64,000 nt of DNA, from the NCBI GenBank assembly GCA_963803915.1, contig CAWDOL010000014.1, positions 99,987 to 163,986 of the forward strand, in the 5' to 3' direction. Under the pieces are notes generated by a model that was not told where the DNA came from, ran no database searches, and was given only the letters and a program-made list of their open reading frames with translations. The position numbers and the translations under genes are program-made. This DNA is from Candidatus Aminicenantes bacterium (GTDB taxonomy: Bacteria > Acidobacteriota > Aminicenantia > Aminicenantales > UBA4085). Positions 2,606-61,706 of the stretch are shown here, piece by piece. Position 1 is the stretch's first letter. Each line of letters starts with the position of its first letter.

Positions 2606-2758
2606 CGAAAAACGCCCTCCGCGTTCACGGCTTGGGAAATTCGGGCGGGAGGAAAGAGCGAATCGCGCGGCCCGCCCGAAGGGTAAAAACTCATGTTTTT
2701 GTATCTTCATGTGAACAAAAAATATTAGAATCTTAAGATTTTTTATGAATCATGCAGG
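2606..2758. other. AT-rich convergent intergenic spacer with a small A/T-tract hairpin motif (gcccgaagggtaaaaactcatgtttttg), shared with 46208-46236.
   Basis: Sharp GC drop relative to flanks. Lies between two convergent stops (2605 + and 2759 -). The motif recurs after the outer-membrane receptor gene at ~46210. Confidence 0.4.
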
Positions 2759-4480: not shown

Positions 4481-6415
4481 GCGAACAGCGGATCGGCAAG
4501 TACGTCGTCATCGAGGAGATCGGCCGCGGCGCCATGGGCGTCGTCTACAAGGCCCTCGATCCGCTCATCGACCGCGTCGTGGCCGTCAAGACCATCCGCT
4601 TCGACATGTATCGCCAATCCCGAACAGCGCGAGGAGGCCCAGAAGCGGTTCCTGCGCGAGGCCAAGTCCGCCGGCCAGCTGTCCCATCCCCACATCGCGA
4701 CCATCTACGAGGTCGGCGAGGACCAGGGCCAAGCCTTCATCGCCATGGAGTACATCGAGGGCCGCAGCCTGGAAGCCTGGCTGGCCGAGAAGCAGCGCTG
4801 GCCGGTCGAAGAGGCCGTCCGGTTCATCATCGAGGTGGCCGAGGCCCTGGAGACGACCCACCGCAAGAACATCGTCCACCGCGACATCAAGCCCGGCAAT
4901 ATCCTGGTCGACGCCGACGGCCACCCCCACCTGGTCGACTTCGGCATCGCCCGGATCCCGGCCTCGACCCTGACCCAGACCACGGCCGTCCTGGGCACGC
5001 CGTTCTATATGGCGCCCGAGCAGGTCGCGGCCCGCAAGATCGACCACCGGGTCGACATCTTCGCCCTGGGAGCCATCTTCTACGAGATGCTGACCCTGGA
5101 GAAGCCGTTCACCGGCGACAACCTGACCACGGTCGTCTACAAGATCATGAACGAGGAGCCGCCGCCGCTGCGCCAGTTCTCGGCCAACCTGCCGCAGGGG
5201 CTCGATCCGATCATCCGCAAGATCCTGGCCAAGGACCCCGACTCCCGCTATCCCTCCTGCCGGGCCCTGGCCAACGACCTGATCCGGTTCGCCGAGGAGG
5301 CCGGGTTCGAGACCGGACGCAAGCCGCAGGCCGAAGCTTCGCTGACCGAGACCAGGAAGATCAAACCGCTGACGGCGGCCAAGCCGGCGAAAACGAAGCC
5401 GCAGGGGCCGGCCGCCTCGCGCAAGCCCCTGCTGATCGTCGGAGCCGCCATGGCCGCGGTCGTCGTCGTCGCGGGCGGCCTCCTGCTCTTTACCAAGAGC
5501 GACAAGGGGCAGCCCGGCCCGACGATGGAGACTCCGGCGGTCGTCGACCCGGGCGCCGGCGAACCGTCCGCCAAAGCGGAGGACAAGCCCGAGGCCGGGA
5601 TCGAAAACAAGCCCGAAAACAAGCCCGCGGACAAGCCCGAGGACAAGCCAGCCGTCAAGGCCGCGGACAAGCCCGAGGACAAGCCCGAGAGCAAATCCGC
5701 CTTCCGCCTCTTCGACCCTACCACCGCGGGCGGGACCGTCAAGCCACAGAACCGGCCCGCTGATCCCGGGGCGGAGTCCAAGCCGGCGACGGTACCGGCC
5801 GTGAAAACGCCTAAACCGGCCCCCGACGCCGGCAAACCAGCGGTCAAGGTCGATCCGAAGGCGGGCAAACCCGACGAGAACAAGCCGGTGGAGCCGGGGC
5901 CGACGGACGCGGCGGCCGAGGCCGCGGCCCGCGCCGCCCAAGCTTGGGCCAAGGGGGACGGCAACGGGGCCATGGCGGCTATCCGCGAAGCGCTGAAGAT
6001 CGACCCCGAGAACGCGGCCGCCAAGTCGTTGGCCCGCGACATCGCCCTGCGAGGGGCCGAAGCCGAAATCCAGACGCTCGTCGACGGCTACCTGGCCGGC
6101 TTGAAAAAGGACGCGCTGGCGGCCTTCTACCAGGCCAGCGCAACGTCCGCTTTGGCCGGGCGCCTCAAGGGCGACCTGGCACTCATGGACAAGGTCTACG
6201 ATAAGTTCAACGGGACCGTGGGCGAGGTCAAGCTCGACTCGCGCAACGCCCAATACCCCCGCTTCGCCGTGCGGGCGTCCTTCCCGCACACGATCACCGG
6301 CCGCAAACGGTCCAACTGGAAGAACGAAACGATCTTCCAGGGCGTGTACACCTGGACCCTGGAGAAGGACGGAGGCCGCTGGATCATCTCCGGCCTGAAC
6401 TTTGAAGCCCGCTGA
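4477..6415 (+). CDS. Hanks-type Ser/Thr protein kinase with TM helix, K/P/E-rich repeat linker and C-terminal NTF2/SnoaL-like domain (one apparent frameshift ~4615)
   Basis: IGRGAMGVVYKA...VAVK in frame 1, then HRDIKPGNILVD, DFGIA, GTPFYMAPE in frame 2. TM helix LLIVGAAMAAVVVVAGGLLLF. Repeat DKPEAGIENKPENKPADKPEDKPAVKAADKPEDKPESK. C-terminal NTF2-like fold (WTLEKDGGRWIISGLNFEAR). Confidence 0.8.
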
Positions 6416-7677: not shown

Positions 7678-8845
7678 TCAGGCGCCCAGCTTGACCATCT
7701 TGCGATAGGCGATGCGCTTATAGAGGGCGATCGCCCGCCGGGCCATGGCCAGGGACGAGAACCGCTCGTGGACGACCTGATGGCCGCGCGCCCCGAACCG
7801 GCGGGCCAGGTCGGGATCCTTGTAGACCGCGTAGACCGCTTCGGCCAGGGCCCGCGGGCTGCGGGGCGAGACGAGAAATCCCGTTTCATCGTTCAGGACG
7901 ACTTCGGGGACGCCTCCGACCTGGGTGGCCACCACGGGCAGCCCGGCCGCCATGGCGTCCATGGTCGACGCGCGCGGGCCCTCCTGCTCCGAAGACAAAA
8001 CGAAGCAGTCGAGCGAGGCGAAAATGCGGGGGGCCTCGTCCTTGAACCCCAGGAAGAAGGCCAGGTCTCCAGCGCCCAGGTCGCGGGCTAAAGAGTCCGA
8101 CCCCAGCTCGAGCGCGCCCCTTCCCAGGATGACGAGCTTGATCTTGGGCGCGCGCTCCCTCAGCATCCGGGCGGCTTCGATGATGTAGCGGTGCCCCTTG
8201 CCGTCCTCCAGATAGGCCTCGATGCCGACCAGGAAGTCGTCGGGGAGGAATCCGAATTCGCGGCGCAGGAAGGTCCTGTCGTCGGCGGCTTCGAAAGCGC
8301 CGAAATCGAGGCCCTCGGGGATGACCTCGATTTTATCCGGAGCGATGCCGCCGTGGACCAGAATGTCGCGGACGTGCTCCGAGACGGCGATGATCAGGTC
8401 CACGTCATGGGCGTACTTGCGCTTGCCGAAGAGGCCCGGCCGGAAGCGCGAATGCGGTGCGCCGCGAGACGATCCGGATGGGCACCTTGGCCCGGGCGCA
8501 TGCGGCGCCGCCGACGGTCACGGCCCGGGCGCCGTGGAAGTGGGCCAGGACGCAGCGGTGCTTGCGCATGGCCCGCGACAGCCCGAAGCCCGCGAATTCG
8601 CCGTCCCCTTTGATCCGGGCCTCCAATACGGGCAGGCCTTCGGCCTCGGCGGCCGCTACGAGCGGCGAGCCCTTCGGCAGGACCAGGCGGACGGGAAAGC
8701 CCTGCGCGGCAAGCTCGCGGGTCAACAGGAACGACGGCCGGCCGCCGCCCTCCCCATCCAGGCCGGCGTCAATCTGGAAAAGGCTCAATGCGCTCTCCCT
8801 TTCTCCAAATCTCTCCCAGCTTGGCATAGCGGACGAAGATGGCAT
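7678..8845 (-). CDS. Glycosyltransferase family 4 (GT1-fold), frameshifted ~8440-8460; start uncertain (ATG 8845, or TTG 8788 just inside the GT2 stop)
   Basis: N-terminal GT4 domain in the 8405-8845 ORF. C-terminal domain (...GGVPEVV..., typical GT4 C-terminus) in the 7678-8403 ORF. The two are joined by a -1 shift. Confidence 0.7.
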
Positions 8846-9542
8846 AGCCGTTGAAGACCGAGACGACGATCCCGGCGAATCCGTCCAGAAAGCCCCGCTT
8901 CAGGATGTAGGCCTTGAGGAAGCGGCCCGGCGGCAGGCACAGGAGGTGATACCAACGGCACTTTTTGCCTTGAGCGTAGAGCTTCTGGGCCCCCAGGTCG
9001 GCGAACGTGTCCAGGCGAGCCATGTGGTCGCCGATGTTGCGGTACGTGAAGTGGTGGATCGGGTTCTTGAAGCGCCGAACCTCGCCGGCGACGACCAGCT
9101 TCTCGTGGACGTACTCCCCTTCCCAACGGGCCGCATCCTTGCGGAAGAGGCGCACCTTGCGGTCCGGGTACCAGCCGCAGTGGCGGATCCAGCGCCCCAG
9201 GTAAAAGACCAGACGGGGCATGGAGAATCCGACGCAAGCGGGTTCTTCATCGCGCAGGGCCAGGATTTCGGTCCGCAGGCCGTCCGAGATCCGCTCGTCG
9301 GCGTCGAGCGATAGGATCCAGGGCTGAGTGGCCAGCCCGTTGGCGAAGTTCTTCTGGTCGGCATAGTTCGTCCATTTGCGGGTGATCACTTTTTCGGTGA
9401 AGGCCCTGACCATCTTGACGGTCCGGTCGGTGCTGAAGCTGTCGACGACGACGATCTCGTCGGCGATCCCGCTCAGGCTCTTTAGGGCCGCCTCGATGTT
9501 GGCTTCCTCGTTGTAGGTGATCAGGACGGCGGAGACTCTCAC
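8769..9542 (-). CDS. Family 2 glycosyltransferase (WaaE/KdtX-like, LPS-core type)
   Basis: VSAVLITYNEE...DEIVVVDSFSTD...LSLDADE motifs. 257 aa. Overlaps the 5' end of the downstream GT4 gene. Confidence 0.7.
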   Translation of the reverse strand: MRVSAVLITYNEEANIEAALKSLSGIADEIVVVDSFSTDRTVKMVRAFTEKVITRKWTNYADQKNFANGLATQPWILSLDADERISDGLRTEILALRDEEPACVGFSMPRLVFYLGRWIRHCGWYPDRKVRLFRKDAARWEGEYVHEKLVVAGEVRRFKNPIHHFTYRNIGDHMARLDTFADLGAQKLYAQGKKCRWYHLLCLPPGRFLKAYILKRGFLDGFAGIVVSVFNGYAIFVRYAKLGEIWRKGERIEPFPD

Positions 9543-9586
9543 GGCTTGAAAGTATCACAGGCCGCTCATTTTCCGCAACACAGTCT

Positions 9587-9743
9587 AATTGGGGGACACC
9601 ATACGTAATTCCCGAATACATTTGTTTACGCAGGGGGGGCCTGAATTGGGGGACGAGCTCGGCCGTCCTCATATCCGTGCATTCTTTGCTTTTCTTGATG
9701 GGGGACACCATACGTAATTCCCGAATACATTTGTTTACGCAGG
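9587..9743. repeat. Intergenic repeat cluster: two 44-bp direct copies (gggggacaccatacgtaattcccgaatacatttgtttacgcagg at 9591-9634 and 9700-9743) around an aattgggggacgagctcggccgtcctcatatc motif. Same family as the elements at 59444-59615 and 60233-60402.
   Basis: Direct sequence identity between copies. Motifs are shared with the other two loci. Lies in the divergent promoter region between the GT2 gene and the PLP-decarboxylase gene. Confidence 0.75.
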
Positions 9744-9802
9744 TCTCACTTCGGCCTTCCCCGGCTTGAATCACGGCCCACAAGCCCCTATACTGGCCGC
9801 TC

Positions 9803-11245
9803 ATGCCCGCCTACGAGGACCTGCTCAAAGCCGCCTTCGATCCGGAGACATTCCGGGCCGAAGCCGTCCGCGTCGTCGACCTGCTCGCCGCCCACCTGGC
9901 CGCCTCCAACCCCGAGGGGCGTCCGCAGGTCATGCCCTATGAAGACCCGGAGACGATGCTGGCCTCCTGGGCGAACCGCTTCGGCAAGGACCCCGCGGTC
10001 CCCTTCCCCGAGCTCCTGCCCGAGATCCTGGCCCGCTCGAACGACCTGCTCCATCCCCGCTTCGTCGGCCACCAGTGCACGACCGCCCTGCCGCTGGCCG
10101 CGCTGGCCGGATTCGTCGGCCAATTCCTGAACAACGGCACGGCCGTCTACGAGATGGGCCCGGTCAATACGGCCATGGAGCGCCACCTCGTCCGCTGGAT
10201 GGCGGGGCTGGCCGGCTGGGGCACTGAAGCGGACGGCATCCTGACGAGCGGCGGCTCGATCGGCAACCTGACCGCCCTGCTGGCCGCCCGCCAGGCCATG
10301 TCCGAACGCGACGTCTGGCGGGAGGGCGTCGGCGATATGCGCGGAGCCGTCCTCGTCTCGCGCCAGTCCCACTACAGCGTCAAGCGGGCCGTGGCCGTCA
10401 TGGGCTTGGGCGAGGACGCCGCCGTGCCGGTGGACGTGGACGAGCGCTTCCACATGACCGCGGACGGCCTGGAGCGTGCCTTCGAGGAGGCCGAGCGTCG
10501 CGGCCGCCGGCCCTTCGCCGTGGCGGCCAACGGCTGCTCCACGGCCACGGGCAGCTACGACGACCTGGCCATGGTTGCGGATTTCGCGACCCGCCGCGGC
10601 CTGTGGTTTCATGTCGACGGGGCTCACGGTGCGGGCGCCCTGCTGACCCCGAAATACAAGCCCCTGCTGCGGGGCTTGGAGCGGGCCGATTCCTTCATCT
10701 GGGACGCCCACAAGAATATGCTCATGCCGGCCCTGATCACGGCGGTCGTCTTCCGCGACGGCCGGCATTCGTACGAGGCCTTCTCCCAGAAGGCGTCCTA
10801 CCTCTTCGAGGGGAGCGCCGACGAGGAATGGTACAACTACGCCCACCGCACGCTCGAATGTACCAAAACGATGATGGGGATGAGGCTGTTCGTCTCCCTG
10901 GCCGCCTACGGCACGGATTTCTTCGCCGGCTACGTGGAGGCCATGTGGGACCTGGCCCGGGCCTTCGCCGCCAAGCTGCACGACTCGGGCGAGTTCGAGG
11001 TCGCCGTTGAGCCCGAGAGCAACATCGTCTGCTTCCGGTACCTCAAGCCGGGCGGCGCCGGCGACGCGGACGAGACGGACGCCCTGCAGCGGCGCATCCG
11101 CCGCACGCTGCTCGAGCAGGGCAAGTTCTACGTCGTCCAGACCGAGCTCGACGGCCGCCTCTGGCTGCGCTGTACGCTGATCAACCCGCGGACCACGATC
11201 GCGGACCTGGACGACTTGATGGCCGAGATCCGCTCGATCGCCTGA
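9803..11245 (+). CDS. PLP-dependent group II amino-acid decarboxylase (GadB/DdC/L-2,4-diaminobutyrate decarboxylase-like)
   Basis: SGGSIGNLTALLAARQ, DAHKNMLMP (PLP-lysine), 480 aa fold-type I. Confidence 0.8.
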   Translation: MPAYEDLLKAAFDPETFRAEAVRVVDLLAAHLAASNPEGRPQVMPYEDPETMLASWANRFGKDPAVPFPELLPEILARSNDLLHPRFVGHQCTTALPLAALAGFVGQFLNNGTAVYEMGPVNTAMERHLVRWMAGLAGWGTEADGILTSGGSIGNLTALLAARQAMSERDVWREGVGDMRGAVLVSRQSHYSVKRAVAVMGLGEDAAVPVDVDERFHMTADGLERAFEEAERRGRRPFAVAANGCSTATGSYDDLAMVADFATRRGLWFHVDGAHGAGALLTPKYKPLLRGLERADSFIWDAHKNMLMPALITAVVFRDGRHSYEAFSQKASYLFEGSADEEWYNYAHRTLECTKTMMGMRLFVSLAAYGTDFFAGYVEAMWDLARAFAAKLHDSGEFEVAVEPESNIVCFRYLKPGGAGDADETDALQRRIRRTLLEQGKFYVVQTELDGRLWLRCTLINPRTTIADLDDLMAEIRSIA

Positions 11246-23609: not shown

Positions 23610-23757
23610 CAGAGTCTCCGTTCTTTTCTTGGGCCTTATTATACGGGACTCGGCCGCGTCGTCACAGGCGGCAAGAAGACTCTCTCTGACCGATTAGAAA
23701 AGCAGAATTCGAGAAGTTATTTTGGCTTAAGGGCGAGGGGCATGGGAGGCAAAACCC

Positions 23758-23875
23758 ATCGACGAGGGAGCGGGCATGGTTCCCTGCCCTTGGCAGGGAG
23801 AGCGACCGAGTCGGCCGGAGCGAACGCCCTCGCTGGGGGCGTGAGCGTGTTTTGCCTCTCATCCCCGAGCCCCCT
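23758..23875 (+). repeat. ~110-nt structured element, copy 2 (same family as 14958-15070)
   Basis: gacgagggagcgggcatggttccctgcccttggcagggagagcgaccgag...gaacgccc-tcgctgg-gggcgtg. Lies between the lepA stop and the mtnA start. Confidence 0.5.
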
Positions 23876-46109: not shown

Positions 46110-46314
46110 CCTGATTATTCACGAGTCGAGAGGGCCGTAGATGCAAGGCGCGGAGGGTGACGCTGTGCTAGTCGCACTGCGAACCCTTCGCAACGAAGCA
46201 GATGCGGTCGGATCGGCTTGCCCGAACGGTAAAAACTCATTTTTTAAAATCTTGTTCGCTTATACCGAGTCGAGATCGTCCCATACATGCTCGGGATGAG
46301 CGAGGCAAGTACCG

Positions 46315-56149: not shown

Positions 56150-56505
56150 ACTGCCAGCGAACCACTACTCGATTCCGGGAAAAGCGGTCCGGAGTGCCGG
56201 CCCGGCAACGCTTTGGTAGTCCTCGCTACGACCGGCGCTTCGCCCGTCGTTGTGAGGGCGGCTTCGGTTTTTTCACGCCTTTTTTCGCTTCTCTTCTCGG
56301 CGCCTGCGGAACTCCGCATGTTTGCTCGAGACGAATGGCATGCCCACCCACTCTATCGCGCTACCGATTGATCTTCTCGTGCTCAAACATCCCTCGGCGC
56401 CCGTTGGGTTCCCTCGAAGAGCGGCAAAAAAAGGCTAAAACCTCGCAATTTCGCCGTTGGCCGGCACCCCGAACCGCTTGGATTTCCCGGAATCAGGAAC
56501 ATAAC

Positions 56506-59443: not shown

Positions 59444-59615
59444 AATTGGGGGACACCATACGTAATTCCCAATTCGATTTCGTCAATTTTATTGGACGTT
59501 TCAGAAGCCGCGACTCCCAGCGGAGATAGCTTGGCGGCGTCAACAAAACAATTCGGGAGTTGTGTATGGTGTCCTCATATCCTAGCGGATATGAGGGCTG
59601 CCGAGCCTGTCCCCC
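59444..59615. repeat. Nested-palindrome intergenic element (family member 2)
   Basis: aattgggggacaccatacgtaattccc at 59444-59470, its partial inverse aattcgggagttgtgtatggtgtcc at 59550-59574, palindrome tcatatcctagcggatatgagg, then gctgccgagcctgtccccc. Confidence 0.75.
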
Positions 59616-59632
59616 TATTATAGAACCCGCTC

Positions 59633-60229
59633 ATGCGCTATTATGAATTCATGTCCCCCCGCCTGTTCAAGACGGCCGCGGCCTGGAGGGCCTGGCTCAC
59701 TCGCAACGGCGGCCGGGCGACTGAGATCTGGTTGGCCTACTTCAAGAAAACCTCCGGAAAAAAGTCCGTCACCTACCAGGAAGCGTTGGACGAGGCCCTT
59801 TGCTACGGCTGGATCGACTCGATCGTGAACAGCCTGGACGCCGAAAGGTATATGCAGCGGTGGACGCCGCGAAAGCCGACGAGCGTCTGGTCGGCCCGCA
59901 ACAAAGCCCGCGTCGCCGAGCTTATGGCCGCCGGACGGATGGCGGAGCCCGGACTGGCCGCCGTGCGCCTGGCTAAGAAAAACGGCTCTTGGGACAAGCT
60001 GACCGAAATCGAGCGGATCGGCCGCGGCGGAGGCCCGCCCGACGAGGTGGTCGCAGCTATTTCGGCCTATCCCGGGCTGGGCAAGAAATTCGAAGCCCTC
60101 CCGGCCTCCAAGCGCAAGATGTTCGCCTATTGGGTGGCCTCGGCCAGGCGCCCCGAGACACGCGACCGCCGCATGGCCCAGATGGAGGAGCTCATCGACT
60201 CGAACCGGCTTCCCGGTTTTAAAAAATAA
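59633..60229 (+). CDS. YdeI/OmpD-associated family protein
   Basis: CYGWIDSIVNSLDAERYMQRWTPRKPTSVWSARN...KFEALPASKRKMFAYWVASA. 198 aa. Confidence 0.65.
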   Translation: MRYYEFMSPRLFKTAAAWRAWLTRNGGRATEIWLAYFKKTSGKKSVTYQEALDEALCYGWIDSIVNSLDAERYMQRWTPRKPTSVWSARNKARVAELMAAGRMAEPGLAAVRLAKKNGSWDKLTEIERIGRGGGPPDEVVAAISAYPGLGKKFEALPASKRKMFAYWVASARRPETRDRRMAQMEELIDSNRLPGFKK

Positions 60230-60232
60230 TAG

Positions 60233-60402
60233 GGGGACAGGCTCGGCAGTCCTCATATCTGGTAGGATATGAGGGCACCATACATAACTCCCGAATTATT
60301 TCCGTCAACTTTAGATGACGTGTAAACAAACGTATTAGGGAATTATGTATGGTGCCCTAATCGCCTATCGGCGATTAGGACTGCCGAGCCTGTCCCCCAA
60401 TT
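60233..60402. repeat. Nested-palindrome intergenic element (family member 3, most complete)
   Basis: Outer IR gggggacaggctcggcagtcc ... ggactgccgagcctgtccccc. Inner IR gggcaccatacataactcccgaat ... attagggaattatgtatggtgccc. Two 22-bp palindromes. Terminal tcccccaatt. Confidence 0.8.
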
Positions 60403-60484
60403 CAATTAGGAGGACGACGATGAGATGCTTCAGCAGCGGCAAGGACAGTCGTTTCGAGACCACCGTCATGTTCGAGCCGGCCGG

Positions 60485-61706
60485 ATGAGCGGCCCGATGC
60501 GACGGCGCGAGGCGCTTTGCGGGCTGGCCGGCGGGGCGGCCGCGCTTCTAACGCCCCGAGCGGGAACGGCAGCCCAGGCTCCCGCGTCCCCGGAGCCGTG
60601 GCCGCGGGTGGCCCGCGACGGCATGGGCTATCGCCGGCTGGGCCGCACGGGGCTGATGATCTCCGAGATCGTCCTGGGCGGCAGCCCCTTGCCGGACGAG
60701 AGCCTCGTTCGGAGGCTGATCGACCGCGGCGTCAACTACATCGACACCTCGGACAGCTACGAGAACGGCAACTGCGAGCGCAAGGTCGGCCGCCTGTTCA
60801 AAGCCGTGGGACGAGATAAGCTCCACGTACATGCCCGCTTCCACCTGCAGGGCTCCTGGACGGCGGACACGATCGTCGGCCTCGGTCGAGGGCAGCCTGC
60901 GCCGGCTGGCCACCGACCGGGTCGAGGTCTTGGGCATTCACGGCGTCGAGTCGCCCGACATCGTCGACGATCCTCGAATCCAGGACGCCTTCCGCAAGCT
61001 GGAGGGCAAGTACGCCTCCCGCGGCCTGACCTGCCATGTCAACGCGGCCGCGGTCATCCCCAAGGCCGTGGCCTCCGGCCTTTACGACATGGTCCAAGTC
61101 GGCTACAACGTCTTTGACCTGCAGCCGGGCGAGAAACCCGTGCGGGCCTATCCCGACTACCTCGGCGAATCCGGCCTGGGCCGGATGATCGACCTCTGCC
61201 GGGACAAGGACATCGGCGTCATCGGGATGAAGGTGCTCAAGGTGGGGGGACAGCGCCAGGTGCTCGACCGCTGGCGGACGGAGGGCGGCTCGCCCCAGGC
61301 GGCCATGATCAAATGGGCCTTGTCCAATCCGCGCCTTTCCGCGGTCGTGATCGAAATCCTCAACGACCGCGAGATGGAGGAGGACCTGGGCGCGTTGGGC
61401 GCTTCGCCGACGCCGGCAGAACGGAAGCTCCTGGCCGCCCATATCGCCGAGAACAGCCGGGCGTACTGCCACATCTGCGGCTCATGCCGGGCCGCCTGCC
61501 CGGAAGGCCGCCCCTTGAGCGAGATAGCCCGCGGGCTGATGTACGCCGAGAGCTATGGAAAGACGTCCCGGGCCCGCGAGGTTCTGGCGGCCGCAGTCGC
61601 GGCCGGATATCCCGCCTGCCGGGACTGCGGAGCCTGCGAGACGGCCTGTCCCTACGGCCTGCCCGTGCGCGAAACCGCCCGCCGGGCGGCGCGGTTTCTG
61701 GCTTAA
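60485..61706 (+). CDS. Tat-signal aldo/keto reductase fused to a C-terminal 2x[4Fe-4S] ferredoxin-like domain (frameshift ~60830)
   Basis: MRRREALCGLAGGAAALL. AKR motifs MGYRRLGRTGLMISEIVLGG, IDTSDSYENGNCE. C-terminal CHICGSCRAACPEG and CRDCGACETACPYG (CxxCxxCxxxCP x2). Confidence 0.65.

What the first reader, a model, noticed from the sequence alone, without database searches (positions are those of the whole stretch)
9587..9743. Third locus of the same repeat family: two 44-bp direct copies in a divergent promoter region
gggggacaccatacgtaattcccgaatacatttgtttacgcagg occurs twice (9591-9634 and 9700-9743). Between the copies lies aattgggggacgagctcggccgtcctcatatc, a variant of motif 2 from the 59-60 kb elements. 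acatttgtttacg is the inverse of tgtaaacaaacgt inside the 60233 element. All three family loci lie in 5' intergenic regions. Here it is between the GT2 start at 9542 (-) and the decarboxylase start at 9803 (+). That placement is compatible either with preferential MITE insertion into promoters or with a repeated transcription-factor operator.
Basis: seen in the sequence. Interest (0 to 1): 0.6.

Follow-up and report, generated by a model that had tools for sequence, protein, structure and literature searches.

The report
Broken copies of a small palindromic repeat
The two identical 45-base copies are broken half-pieces of a small palindromic, probably mobile, repeat family found in Aminicenantes bacteria; they sit between two back-to-back promoters, are missing from the closest relative, and are ordinary decaying repeat DNA rather than a regulatory site.

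Summary
An exact 45-nt direct repeat lies at 9590-9634 and 9699-9743, with a third family fragment at 9644-9676. All three match the elements at 59444-59619 and 60228-60402.

The family is MITE-like: small, relatively AT-rich intergenic palindromes with termini AATWGGGGGACA...TGTCCCCCWATT. It has a short form of about 100 nt and a long form of about 175 nt that carries an extra 38-nt stem-plus-hairpin module on each arm.

The finding's 45-nt unit is one half-arm of the short form. It matches an intact copy in a related metagenome contig at 43/45 and stops at the palindrome apex. The middle fragment is a long-form terminus that stops at the apex of its hairpin. All three pieces point the same way, so the locus has no fold (z = +0.45 and +0.91).

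The sister genome (93% identical decarboxylase) and at least two other relatives have an empty site. Two further relatives carry different family members at the same spot. The core promoter boxes of both flanking genes are kept on either side.

The operator reading is therefore not supported. The MITE-in-promoter reading is supported, but this locus is a rearranged remnant. No transposase, no clean target-site duplication and no genome-wide copy count could be obtained. This is a new member of a known kind, of low to moderate interest.

The parts
9587..9634 (+). Copy 1: the outer terminus (AATTGGGGGACA) plus one inner arm of the short-form palindrome. It ends at the palindrome apex (TTTACGC), followed by AGG.
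   Evidence: Exact repeat. 43/45 identical to the right arm of the intact short form in L014, and 27/27 to the left end of element A. nhmmer arm profile E = 1.3e-13.
9635..9643 (.). 9-nt junction GGGGGCCTG with no family match.
   Evidence: Read directly from the sequence; not covered by the arm or T+H profile hits.
9644..9676 (+). Long-form terminus (T module AATTGGGGGACGAGCTCGGCCG) plus the left half only of hairpin H (TCCTCATATCC), cut at the hairpin apex.
   Evidence: nhmmer T+H profile E = 3.2e-11. 83-89% identical to the termini of elements A and B (I9/I10). Intact H hairpins are shown.
9677..9698 (.). 22-nt spacer GTGCATTCTTTGCTTTTCTTGA with no significant family match. It may be a degenerate, expanded H loop, so that 9644-9743 reads as one long-form arm.
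   Evidence: No BLAST match to this stretch anywhere else in the window or the loci held; only a marginal extension of the T+H nhmmer profile hit reaches into it. The single-arm reading is an inference from module order compared with element B.
9699..9743 (+). Copy 2: 100% identical to 9590-9634, but preceded by GA rather than AAT, so it lacks the full AATW terminus.
9582..9751 (.). The whole block (about 170 nt) that is present in the window and absent from the sister genome L006. The boundaries are approximate.
   Evidence: Alignment A1 and the sequences of L006 and L007. Intergenic lengths are 260 nt here against 92, 58, 90 and 66 nt in relatives.
9766..9794 (+). Promoter-like site of the decarboxylase gene, TTGAAT-17-TATACT, 8 nt before the ATG at 9803. 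It is retained downstream of the block, and the -10 box is conserved in all relatives.
   Evidence: TATACT is invariant in alignment A1 and in L015 and L016.
9549..9579 (-). Putative GT2 promoter on the minus strand: TTGCGG, 16 nt, then the extended -10 TGTGATACT, 8 nt before the GTG at 9542. It is retained on the other side of the block.
   Evidence: Read by eye (conserved ...AGTATCACAGG...CCGCAA). The consensus scan did not call it, so this is inference.
59444..59619 (+). Element A: short-form left end and long-form right end (hairpin H plus T module). It occupies the position where relatives have the -35 box of the OmdA promoter.
   Evidence: (z = -5.4). An orthologous diverged copy is in L013 and an empty site in L014 and L018.
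60228..60402 (+). Element B: the intact long form. It has an 18-bp outer stem, two H hairpins and a long inner stem. Its first bases overlap the OmdA stop codon.
   Evidence: I3: 69-nt arms, 84% complementary; -109.7 kcal/mol, z = -14.6. The same site holds a short form in L014, a 31-nt remnant in L013 and another subtype in L018.

Best explanation
The locus is a rearranged, non-functional remnant of a lineage-specific family of small palindromic, MITE-like repeats in Candidatus Aminicenantes.

What intact members look like. They are 90-175-nt, relatively AT-rich palindromes with termini AATWGGGGGACA...TGTCCCCCWATT. The long form carries an extra 38-nt module on each arm: a 10-nt stem segment plus an 11-bp hairpin, called H here. 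The short form probably arises from the long form by deletion between the near-repeats GGGGGACA and GAGGGCA.

What probably happened at this locus.
1. Family DNA entered the narrow AT-richer spacer between the back-to-back core promoters of the GT2 and decarboxylase genes, probably after the split from the sister genome.
2. The palindromes were broken at their apexes, leaving three half-pieces in one orientation: a short-form half-arm, a long-form terminus with half of hairpin H, and a second short-form half-arm.
3. The two 45-nt half-arms are 100% identical because of a recent local duplication or gene conversion.

Consequence. The block most likely has no function of its own. Its only probable effect is to push the two divergent promoters about 170 bp apart.

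Shown: family membership, half-arm identity, absence of fold, insertion/deletion polymorphism, repeated occupancy of the site, and retention of the core promoter boxes. Inferred: transposition as the means of spread, apex breakage, the conversion or duplication step, and lack of function.
For: 1. The exact 45-nt repeat and the third fragment all match elements A and B.
2. The unit equals one arm of the intact short form in L014 at 43/45 and ends at the palindrome apex. The middle piece ends at the apex of hairpin H.
3. The target locus shows no fold on either strand (z = +0.45 and +0.91). Intact members fold extremely well: B z = -14.6, and about -9.0, -9.9 and -8.4 for L014, L015_C and L015_D.
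4. The site is empty in sister genome L006 (93% aa) and in L007 and L016/L017. The P0002 contig has a 90-nt spacer.
5. The same spot holds a different complete 89-nt palindrome in L015 and a degenerate copy of another subtype in L010.
6. Similarity does not follow locus orthology. C1 against A_L in the same genome is 27/27. C1 against L014_B_R is 43/45. C1 against the same-site copy in L010 is 29/45. A_L against its ortholog in L013 is 22/27.
7. The elements have about 0.40-0.53 GC in a genome of about 0.65-0.72 GC, and they are intergenic and non-coding.
8. The promoter boxes of both flanking genes lie outside the block and are conserved.
9. Independent Logan assemblies break inside the repeats.
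10. These properties fit published MITE traits: TIRs, AT-richness, intergenic AT-rich targets, stable stem-loops, partial copies without TIRs or direct repeats, and clustering or nesting (PMC10969869).
Against: - No transposase or autonomous element with matching ends was found.
- No clean target-site duplication is visible. There is only a 4-nt GTCT on both sides of the block, and the AATW is part of the inverted termini.
- The copy number in the source genome could not be measured. Only 3 loci were seen in 64 kb, and about 100 kb of relatives' DNA gave copies only at the same three sites.
- Occupancy of the C and B sites in several lineages could reflect ancient vertical inheritance with concerted evolution and loss, rather than repeated insertion.
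- Hairpin H keeps pairing through compensatory changes, and the element at site B persists across lineages whose OmdA is only 72% identical. Both hint at selection on intact members.
- An a-b-a arrangement with two truncations that share the same 3 extra bases (AGG) is not what a simple insertion produces.
Confidence: 0.75

Rival explanations
1. The two 45-nt direct repeats are operator or enhancer-like binding sites for a transcription factor that co-regulates the divergent GT2 and decarboxylase genes and, through related motifs, the genes at 59-60 kb.
For: The repeats are exact and lie in a divergent promoter region. Part of the motif recurs upstream of OmdA.
Against: - The block is absent from the orthologous promoter of the sister genome and of at least two other relatives, while both core promoters are conserved.
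- The motif occurs only as part of palindromic repeat elements, never alone.
- The neighbouring genes (GT2, PLP decarboxylase, OmdA/YdeI, aldo-keto reductase, a 967-aa protein with no Pfam match) share no evident function.
- A 45-nt unit spaced at 109 nt is unlike known operators.
- The unit is simply half of a 100-nt palindrome.
Confidence: 0.05
2. The family is not selfish DNA. It is a selected, structure-dependent element: a DNA or RNA hairpin acting as a terminator, mRNA stabiliser or protein-binding site, comparable to REP/BIME. The target locus would then be a dead or partial copy of such a functional element.
For: - Hairpin H keeps 97.7% pairing, with double-sided changes at 4 of 11 pairs across 4 copies.
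- An element sits at or just after the OmdA stop codon in four lineages whose OmdA is only 72-86% identical.
- The core of B is 90% identical to the L014 copy, against 85% for the adjacent coding DNA.
- Intact copies are extremely stable.
Against: - Only 4 hairpin sequences are available, and palindromic arms can be kept alike by DNA-level processes.
- Inner-stem differences are not compensated and favour neither strand (read).
- The forms at the same site differ wildly, from 31-nt and 98-nt to 175-nt versions.
- Copies decay freely in L013_A, L010_C and the target locus.
- No terminator-like T-tract is present, and there is no Rfam family.
Confidence: 0.13
3. The a-b-a arrangement (copy, 64 nt, copy) is an assembly artefact, created when a de Bruijn-graph assembler walked through a repeat shared by several genomic loci.
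For: - The copies are exactly identical, and their length (45 nt) is in the range of assembler k-mers.
- The source is a metagenome-assembled genome.
- Independent Logan assemblies break inside copy 2 (about position 9711) and inside element B, showing that the repeat does confuse assemblers.
Against: - A cycle a-b-a needs b to be flanked by a on both sides somewhere in the sample, so the pieces are real in any case.
- The 157-nt block is about the length of a single read.
- The conclusion that family fragments sit at this site, absent from the sister genome, does not depend on the exact arrangement.
Confidence: 0.07

Closest known systems
Prokaryotic MITEs in general, for example Correia/CREE of Neisseria, ERIC/IRU of enterobacteria, Nezha and Chunjie, QMITEs of Coxiella
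   Same: Intact members share these traits:
- small size (90-175 nt) with no coding capacity;
- long terminal inverted repeats;
- more AT-rich than the host genome;
- located in AT-richer intergenic and promoter DNA;
- transcripts or strands that would form very stable stem-loops;
- presence/absence polymorphism between close relatives;
- partial and clustered copies.
The traits are as listed in PMC10969869. Like Correia, copies sit directly at promoters and at gene 3' ends.
   Different: - No sequence similarity to any annotated element was found (plasmid search; Rfam).
- No target-site duplication is recognisable.
- No partner IS or transposase was identified.
- No promoter-like hexamer pair lies inside the elements.
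- The modular long and short forms with an add-on hairpin module are unusual.
- The target locus itself lacks inverted repeats.
Mosaic repeats: BIMEs (REP clusters) of E. coli and BOX elements of Streptococcus pneumoniae
   Same: The family has a modular, mosaic build. The terminus, hairpin H and inner-arm modules are combined differently in different copies, and same-orientation partial units are clustered at one intergenic site. This comparison rests on my own knowledge of those families.
   Different: The units are longer than REPs (20-40 nt). There is no GTAG or CGTC tag (compare PMC3733652, title and abstract seen). No RAYT gene was seen in any fetched locus. There is no sequence relation.
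Tn3-family terminal repeats and Tn3-derived miniature elements (TIMEs). This is a lead from memory only.
   Same: The arm of about 41 nt starts with GGGGG, has an A/T-rich interior and ends near ACGC. As I recall them, that outline resembles the 38-bp Tn3/Tn21-type ends. Those elements prefer AT-rich targets.
   Different: The resemblance was not tested against any Tn3 sequence here. No 5-bp target duplication flanks any copy (read). No Tn3-type transposase was seen.

Membership tests
MITE (miniature inverted-repeat transposable element) | Small (tens to a few hundred bp) and non-coding | tested here: met
   Elements are 89-176 nt and lie between genes. The only ORFs listed over the block, 9247-9804 (-) and 9788-10981 (-), run out of frame or antisense through the GT2 and decarboxylase genes, so they were judged not to be genes.
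MITE (miniature inverted-repeat transposable element) | Terminal inverted repeats | tested here: met
   Met for intact family members: B has 69-nt arms at 84% complementarity, L015_C 37 nt at 89%, L015_D 24/24, and L014 14/16 terminal bases. Not met for the target locus itself, which holds three ends in the same orientation and no partner.
MITE (miniature inverted-repeat transposable element) | Target-site duplication flanking the element | tested here: inconclusive
   No direct repeat flanks A, B, L014_B, L015_C or L015_D. AATW is part of the inverted termini or of a palindromic target. Only a 4-nt GTCT flanks the C block (read). The review notes that duplications fade with age.
MITE (miniature inverted-repeat transposable element) | Several dispersed copies in one genome | tested here: inconclusive
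   There are three loci in this 64-kb window. The rest of the source genome (a 629-kb contig) could not be read. Exact-pattern scans of the two large collections gave only chance hits, but the metagenome collection did not return L014, which is a known positive.
MITE (miniature inverted-repeat transposable element) | Presence/absence at orthologous sites in close relatives (evidence of mobility) | tested here: met
   Site C is filled in the window, L010 and L015 and empty in L006, L007 and L016/L017. Site A is filled in the window and L013 and empty in L014 and L018.
MITE (miniature inverted-repeat transposable element) | A cognate autonomous IS or transposase with matching ends | not testable with these tools
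   The terminus pattern has no further copy in the window or in any fetched locus. None of the called genes in the fetched loci has a transposase Pfam hit. The window's own ORFs were not scanned systematically. The source genome and ISfinder were not available.
MITE (miniature inverted-repeat transposable element) | AT-rich relative to the host, in intergenic AT-rich DNA, with a stable stem-loop | tested here: met
   GC is 0.40-0.53 against about 0.65-0.72 in flanking genes. Fold z-scores of intact copies run from -8.4 to -14.6.
Transcription-factor operator / regulon motif | Conserved in the orthologous promoter of close relatives | tested here: not met
   Absent from L006 (93% aa), L007 and L016/L017, while the core promoter boxes are conserved.
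Transcription-factor operator / regulon motif | The motif recurs on its own upstream of functionally related genes | tested here: not met
   The motif occurs only inside the palindromic elements. The flanking genes are functionally unrelated.
Known structured RNA family (Rfam 15) | Covariance-model match at or above the gathering score | tested here: not met
   No match at gathering score anywhere in the window. In E-value mode the target locus gave none. Elements A and B gave only generic long-hairpin miRNA-precursor models far below threshold.
REP / REPIN-RAYT system | 20-40-nt palindromic units with a GTAG or CGTC tag, and an associated RAYT gene | tested here: not met
   The units are 90-175 nt. 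The termini are AATWGGGGGACA, with no GTAG or CGTC tag. No Y1-transposase-like gene appears in the Pfam lists of the fetched loci. The whole genome was not searched.

The most novel reading that the evidence does not exclude
The GGGGGACA family is not just selfish DNA. It would be a structure-dependent, site-seeking element of Aminicenantes, whose hairpin modules are maintained by selection or by a hairpin-recognising enzyme. It would home repeatedly to the same promoter spacers and gene 3' ends, replace -35 boxes and supply stop codons, and so act as a lineage-specific module for rewiring transcription. The target locus would then be a by-product of repeated homing and apex cleavage at one hot spot.
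Probability: 0.12. Interest if true: 0.5.

Novelty: new member of a known kind. Interest (0 to 1): 0.25.

Why it matters
The practical value is for annotation. The repeats should not be read as an operator or as an RNA gene. They also explain why assemblies of these uncultured Aminicenantes genomes break at such sites.

No MITE-like family appears to be described for this candidate lineage: the one full-text search that paired Aminicenantes with 'inverted repeat' returned nothing, and a broader search on Acidobacteria returned seven papers that were not opened. The family offers a small natural experiment, because the same promoter spacer is empty, filled with an intact palindrome, or filled with broken halves in sister lineages. 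That could be used to study how palindromic insertions reshape leaderless-type divergent promoters, and how long palindromes decay by breaking at their apex and by deletion between short near-repeats. None of this changes current understanding of MITEs.

Tried and rejected
- Exact-pattern scan of 185k species-representative genomes with the outer terminus (GCCGAGCYYGTCCCCCWATT). It gave three hits, all chance matches inside coding DNA.
- Exact-pattern scan of the JGI metagenome collection with the inner-arm pattern. It gave two chance hits in AT-rich unrelated DNA. The scan did not return the L014 contig, which contains an exact match, so this negative result is weak.
- Two viral-contig scans: no hits.
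- Distant blastn of element B against plasmids: no match.
- Rfam at gathering score and in E-value mode: nothing meaningful.
- Exact-protein look-ups to reach the source genome.
- Reading L010 as holding two direct copies like the window. I rejected this: its second 'copy' is better explained as the right end (TGATTCGGG...) of its own subtype, as seen in L018.
- Composite transposon or gene cassette carrying OmdA between elements A and B. I rejected this because OmdA is present without element A in L014 and L018.
- Strand-specific RNA structure. Inner-stem mismatches are G-U-compatible on the plus strand in A but on the minus strand in B, so no strand is favoured.
- Outward-facing promoters inside the elements: none by consensus scan.
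- Integron attC, retron, DGR and CRISPR readings. I considered these and dropped them because their defining motifs or genes are absent from the sequences read and from the genes that were scanned.
- The Tn3-end resemblance is kept only as an untested lead.

Full report
**Observation.** The sequence TGGGGGACACCATACGTAATTCCCGAATACATTTGTTTACGCAGG occurs exactly twice, at 9590-9634 and 9699-9743, 109 nt apart. No shuffle of the window gave a match. Between the copies, 9644-9675 reads AATTGGGGGACGAGCTCGGCCGTCCTCATATC. The flanking genes are a family-2 glycosyltransferase (8769-9542, minus strand) and a PLP-dependent decarboxylase (9803-11245, plus strand). The motif AATTGGGGGAC, allowing one mismatch, is found six times in the window against 1.04 expected. 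All six lie at three loci: this one, 59444-59619 (element A) and 60228-60402 (element B).

**Anatomy of the family.**
- Element B is a 175-nt near-perfect palindrome. It has an 18-bp outer stem (GGGGGACAGGCTCGGCAG / CTGCCGAGCCTGTCCCCC), two 11-bp hairpins (called H here) and a long inner stem (CACCATACATAAYTCCC...).
- Taken as a single strand, B folds at -109.7 kcal/mol, z = -14.6.
- Element A has the same right end, but its left end lacks the 38-nt 'stem segment plus H' module (z = -5.4).
- Relatives fetched through the flanking genes show the other forms. L014 has a clean 98-nt short form, AATGGGGGACACCATAC...GTATGGTGTCCCCCAATT, at the site orthologous to B. L013 has only a 31-nt remnant there and a decayed short form at the site orthologous to A. 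L018 has a further subtype with its own H hairpin.
- The 38-nt module is bracketed by the near-repeats GGGGGACA and GAGGGCA. Deletion by slippage between them would turn a long arm into a short arm. This step is an inference.
- Across four copies, hairpin H keeps 97.7% pairing, with changes on both sides at 4 of 11 pairs.
- Intact members have GC of 0.40-0.53 in a genome whose genes run at about 0.65-0.72.

**What the target locus is.**
- The 45-nt unit is one half of the short-form palindrome. It is 43/45 identical to the right arm of the L014 element and 27/27 identical to the left end of element A. It stops at the apex of the palindrome.
- The middle piece is a long-form terminus plus only the left half of hairpin H, so it also stops at a hairpin apex.
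- All three pieces point the same way and none has an inverted partner. The locus therefore has no more structure than shuffled sequence on either strand (z = +0.45 and +0.91).
- The stretch 9644-9743 can be read as one long-form arm with a degenerate H. The upstream 45 nt would then be a local duplicate or conversion partner.
- Both copies share the three non-family bases AGG after the apex. This favours a local duplication or conversion over two independent truncations. The exact history is unresolved.

**Comparative evidence.**
- The window comes from a Candidatus Aminicenantes genome.
- The gene order GT4-GT2 (minus strand), then decarboxylase (plus strand), is conserved in relatives.
- The spacer between GT2 and the decarboxylase is 260 nt here. 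It is 92 nt in L006, 58 nt in L007, 90 nt in the P0002 contig and 66 nt in L016/L017.
- L006 is the sister lineage: 93% amino-acid and 91% DNA identity. L007 and L010 are roughly equidistant outgroups.
- Alignment A1 shows the flanks matching base for base, while about 170 nt (roughly 9582-9751) are missing from L006 and L007.
- The same spot is occupied in two other lineages by other family members. L010 has a degenerate copy of the GGGGTACAGTATACG subtype, the subtype also seen in L018. L015 has a complete but different 89-nt palindrome, GGGGGACAGTTACCAAATCCCC....
- L015 also has a related palindrome directly after the decarboxylase stop codon.
- Similarity among copies does not follow locus orthology. 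That fits movement or conversion among copies and does not fit a conserved regulatory site.

**Relation to promoters.**
- The decarboxylase has TTGAAT-17-TATACT ending 8 nt before its ATG. The TATACT is invariant in all relatives.
- GT2 has a conserved extended -10-like TGTGATACT 8 nt before its GTG. I read this by eye; the consensus scan did not call it.
- Both lie outside the block. The insertion therefore sits in the only dispensable stretch between two back-to-back, apparently leaderless promoters.
- Element A lies where L014 and L018 have the TTGACA -35 box of the OmdA promoter, while the -10 box is kept.
- Element B overlaps the OmdA stop codon.
- No promoter-like hexamer pair was found inside the elements.

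**Interpretation.** The best-supported reading is a lineage-specific MITE-like palindromic repeat family, with this locus as a broken, locally duplicated remnant that has no function of its own. Published MITE traits fit: inverted termini, AT-richness, AT-rich intergenic targets, stable stem-loops, partial copies lacking termini, and clustering (PMC10969869).

Three things are missing:
- a transposase or parent IS;
- a recognisable target-site duplication;
- a genome-wide copy count.

The source contig could not be read. Exact-pattern scans of the large collections returned only chance hits, and the metagenome collection evidently lacks the samples known to be positive.

The operator hypothesis fails the conservation test. 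It also fails the test of the motif standing alone, away from the palindromes. An RNA-gene reading fails for this locus, which has no fold and no Rfam match.

A weaker rival remains for the family as a whole. Intact members could be under selection as structure-dependent elements, because hairpin H shows compensatory changes and site B stays occupied across lineages whose OmdA is only 72-86% identical. An assembly artefact for the exact a-b-a arrangement cannot be excluded without reads, but it would not change the main conclusion.

**Verdict.** This is a new member of a known kind. Interest is low to moderate.

Noticed in passing
window 13065-13345 and 56257-56493: A second, unrelated repeat family. 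At 13.06-13.35 kb there is a roughly 285-nt imperfect palindrome with perfect 18-nt termini (TCGCCCAATTCCAGGAAG / CTTCCTGGAATTGGGCGA), folding at z = -9.4. An inverted, roughly 73-78% similar partial copy lies at 56.26-56.49 kb. An inverted repeat with a similar-looking arm motif (AGAGCTGTGGGAAAAGGCGA) lies at L018 6035-6195; I did not compare it further. No Rfam family matches.
   Followed up: partly
window 14935-15064 and 23733-23866: A third family of small palindromic elements of about 125-130 nt. The two copies share GCGAGGGG...GACGAGSGAGCGGGCATGGTTCCCTGCCC at 75% identity, and each has its own inverted termini (D17; I5 and I17).
   Followed up: no
window 60425-61706: The aldo-keto reductase / 4Fe-4S gene downstream of element B is split into two overlapping reading frames (60425/60485-61117 and 60831-61706). 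The relative L013 has one 407-aa gene (1144-2367). This is either a frameshifted pseudogene or an assembly error.
   Followed up: no
window 60421-60489: A 22-codon ORF with a strong Shine-Dalgarno sequence (MRCFSSGKDSRFETTVMFEPAG) overlaps the reductase start in an ATGA arrangement. It looks like the remnant of the Cys-rich N-terminus of a YbjQ-domain protein that is intact after the same element in L018 and L014 (MKCLRCGKDFPSIYYFQAP...).
   Followed up: partly
window 9542, 9803, 59651 and orthologs: Several genes appear to be leaderless. A -10-like box (TATACT, TGTGATACT, TATTAT/TAAGAT) lies 6-8 nt before the start codon, with no Shine-Dalgarno sequence, and this is conserved across relatives. 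The true OmdA start is probably the ATG at 59651, not 59633.
   Followed up: partly
window 2668-2707 and 46214-46253: A 40-nt direct repeat, CGGCCCGCCCGAAGGGTAAAAACTCATGTTTTTGTATCTT, at 83% identity and 43.5 kb apart. It could be a shared terminator or promoter module, or another repeat (D20).
   Followed up: no
window 5572-5703: An in-frame 12-nt-period tandem repeat (CAAGCCCGAGGA-like, about 11 units). If translated, it would presumably encode a low-complexity tetrapeptide-repeat region (D1).
   Followed up: no
L015 4219-4310: A 92-nt perfect-ended palindrome (AATTACCAGACACATACTTAATTC..., 24/24 complementary) lies immediately after the decarboxylase stop codon in MAG GCA_028749235.1. It shares the AATT-N5-ACAC(C)ATAC-TAATTC terminus outline with the family studied here, which suggests a wider superfamily.
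   Followed up: partly
L010 2160-2810: A very AT-rich gap of about 640 nt between genes in an otherwise GC-rich Aminicenantes MAG contig. It may be foreign or degraded DNA.
   Followed up: no
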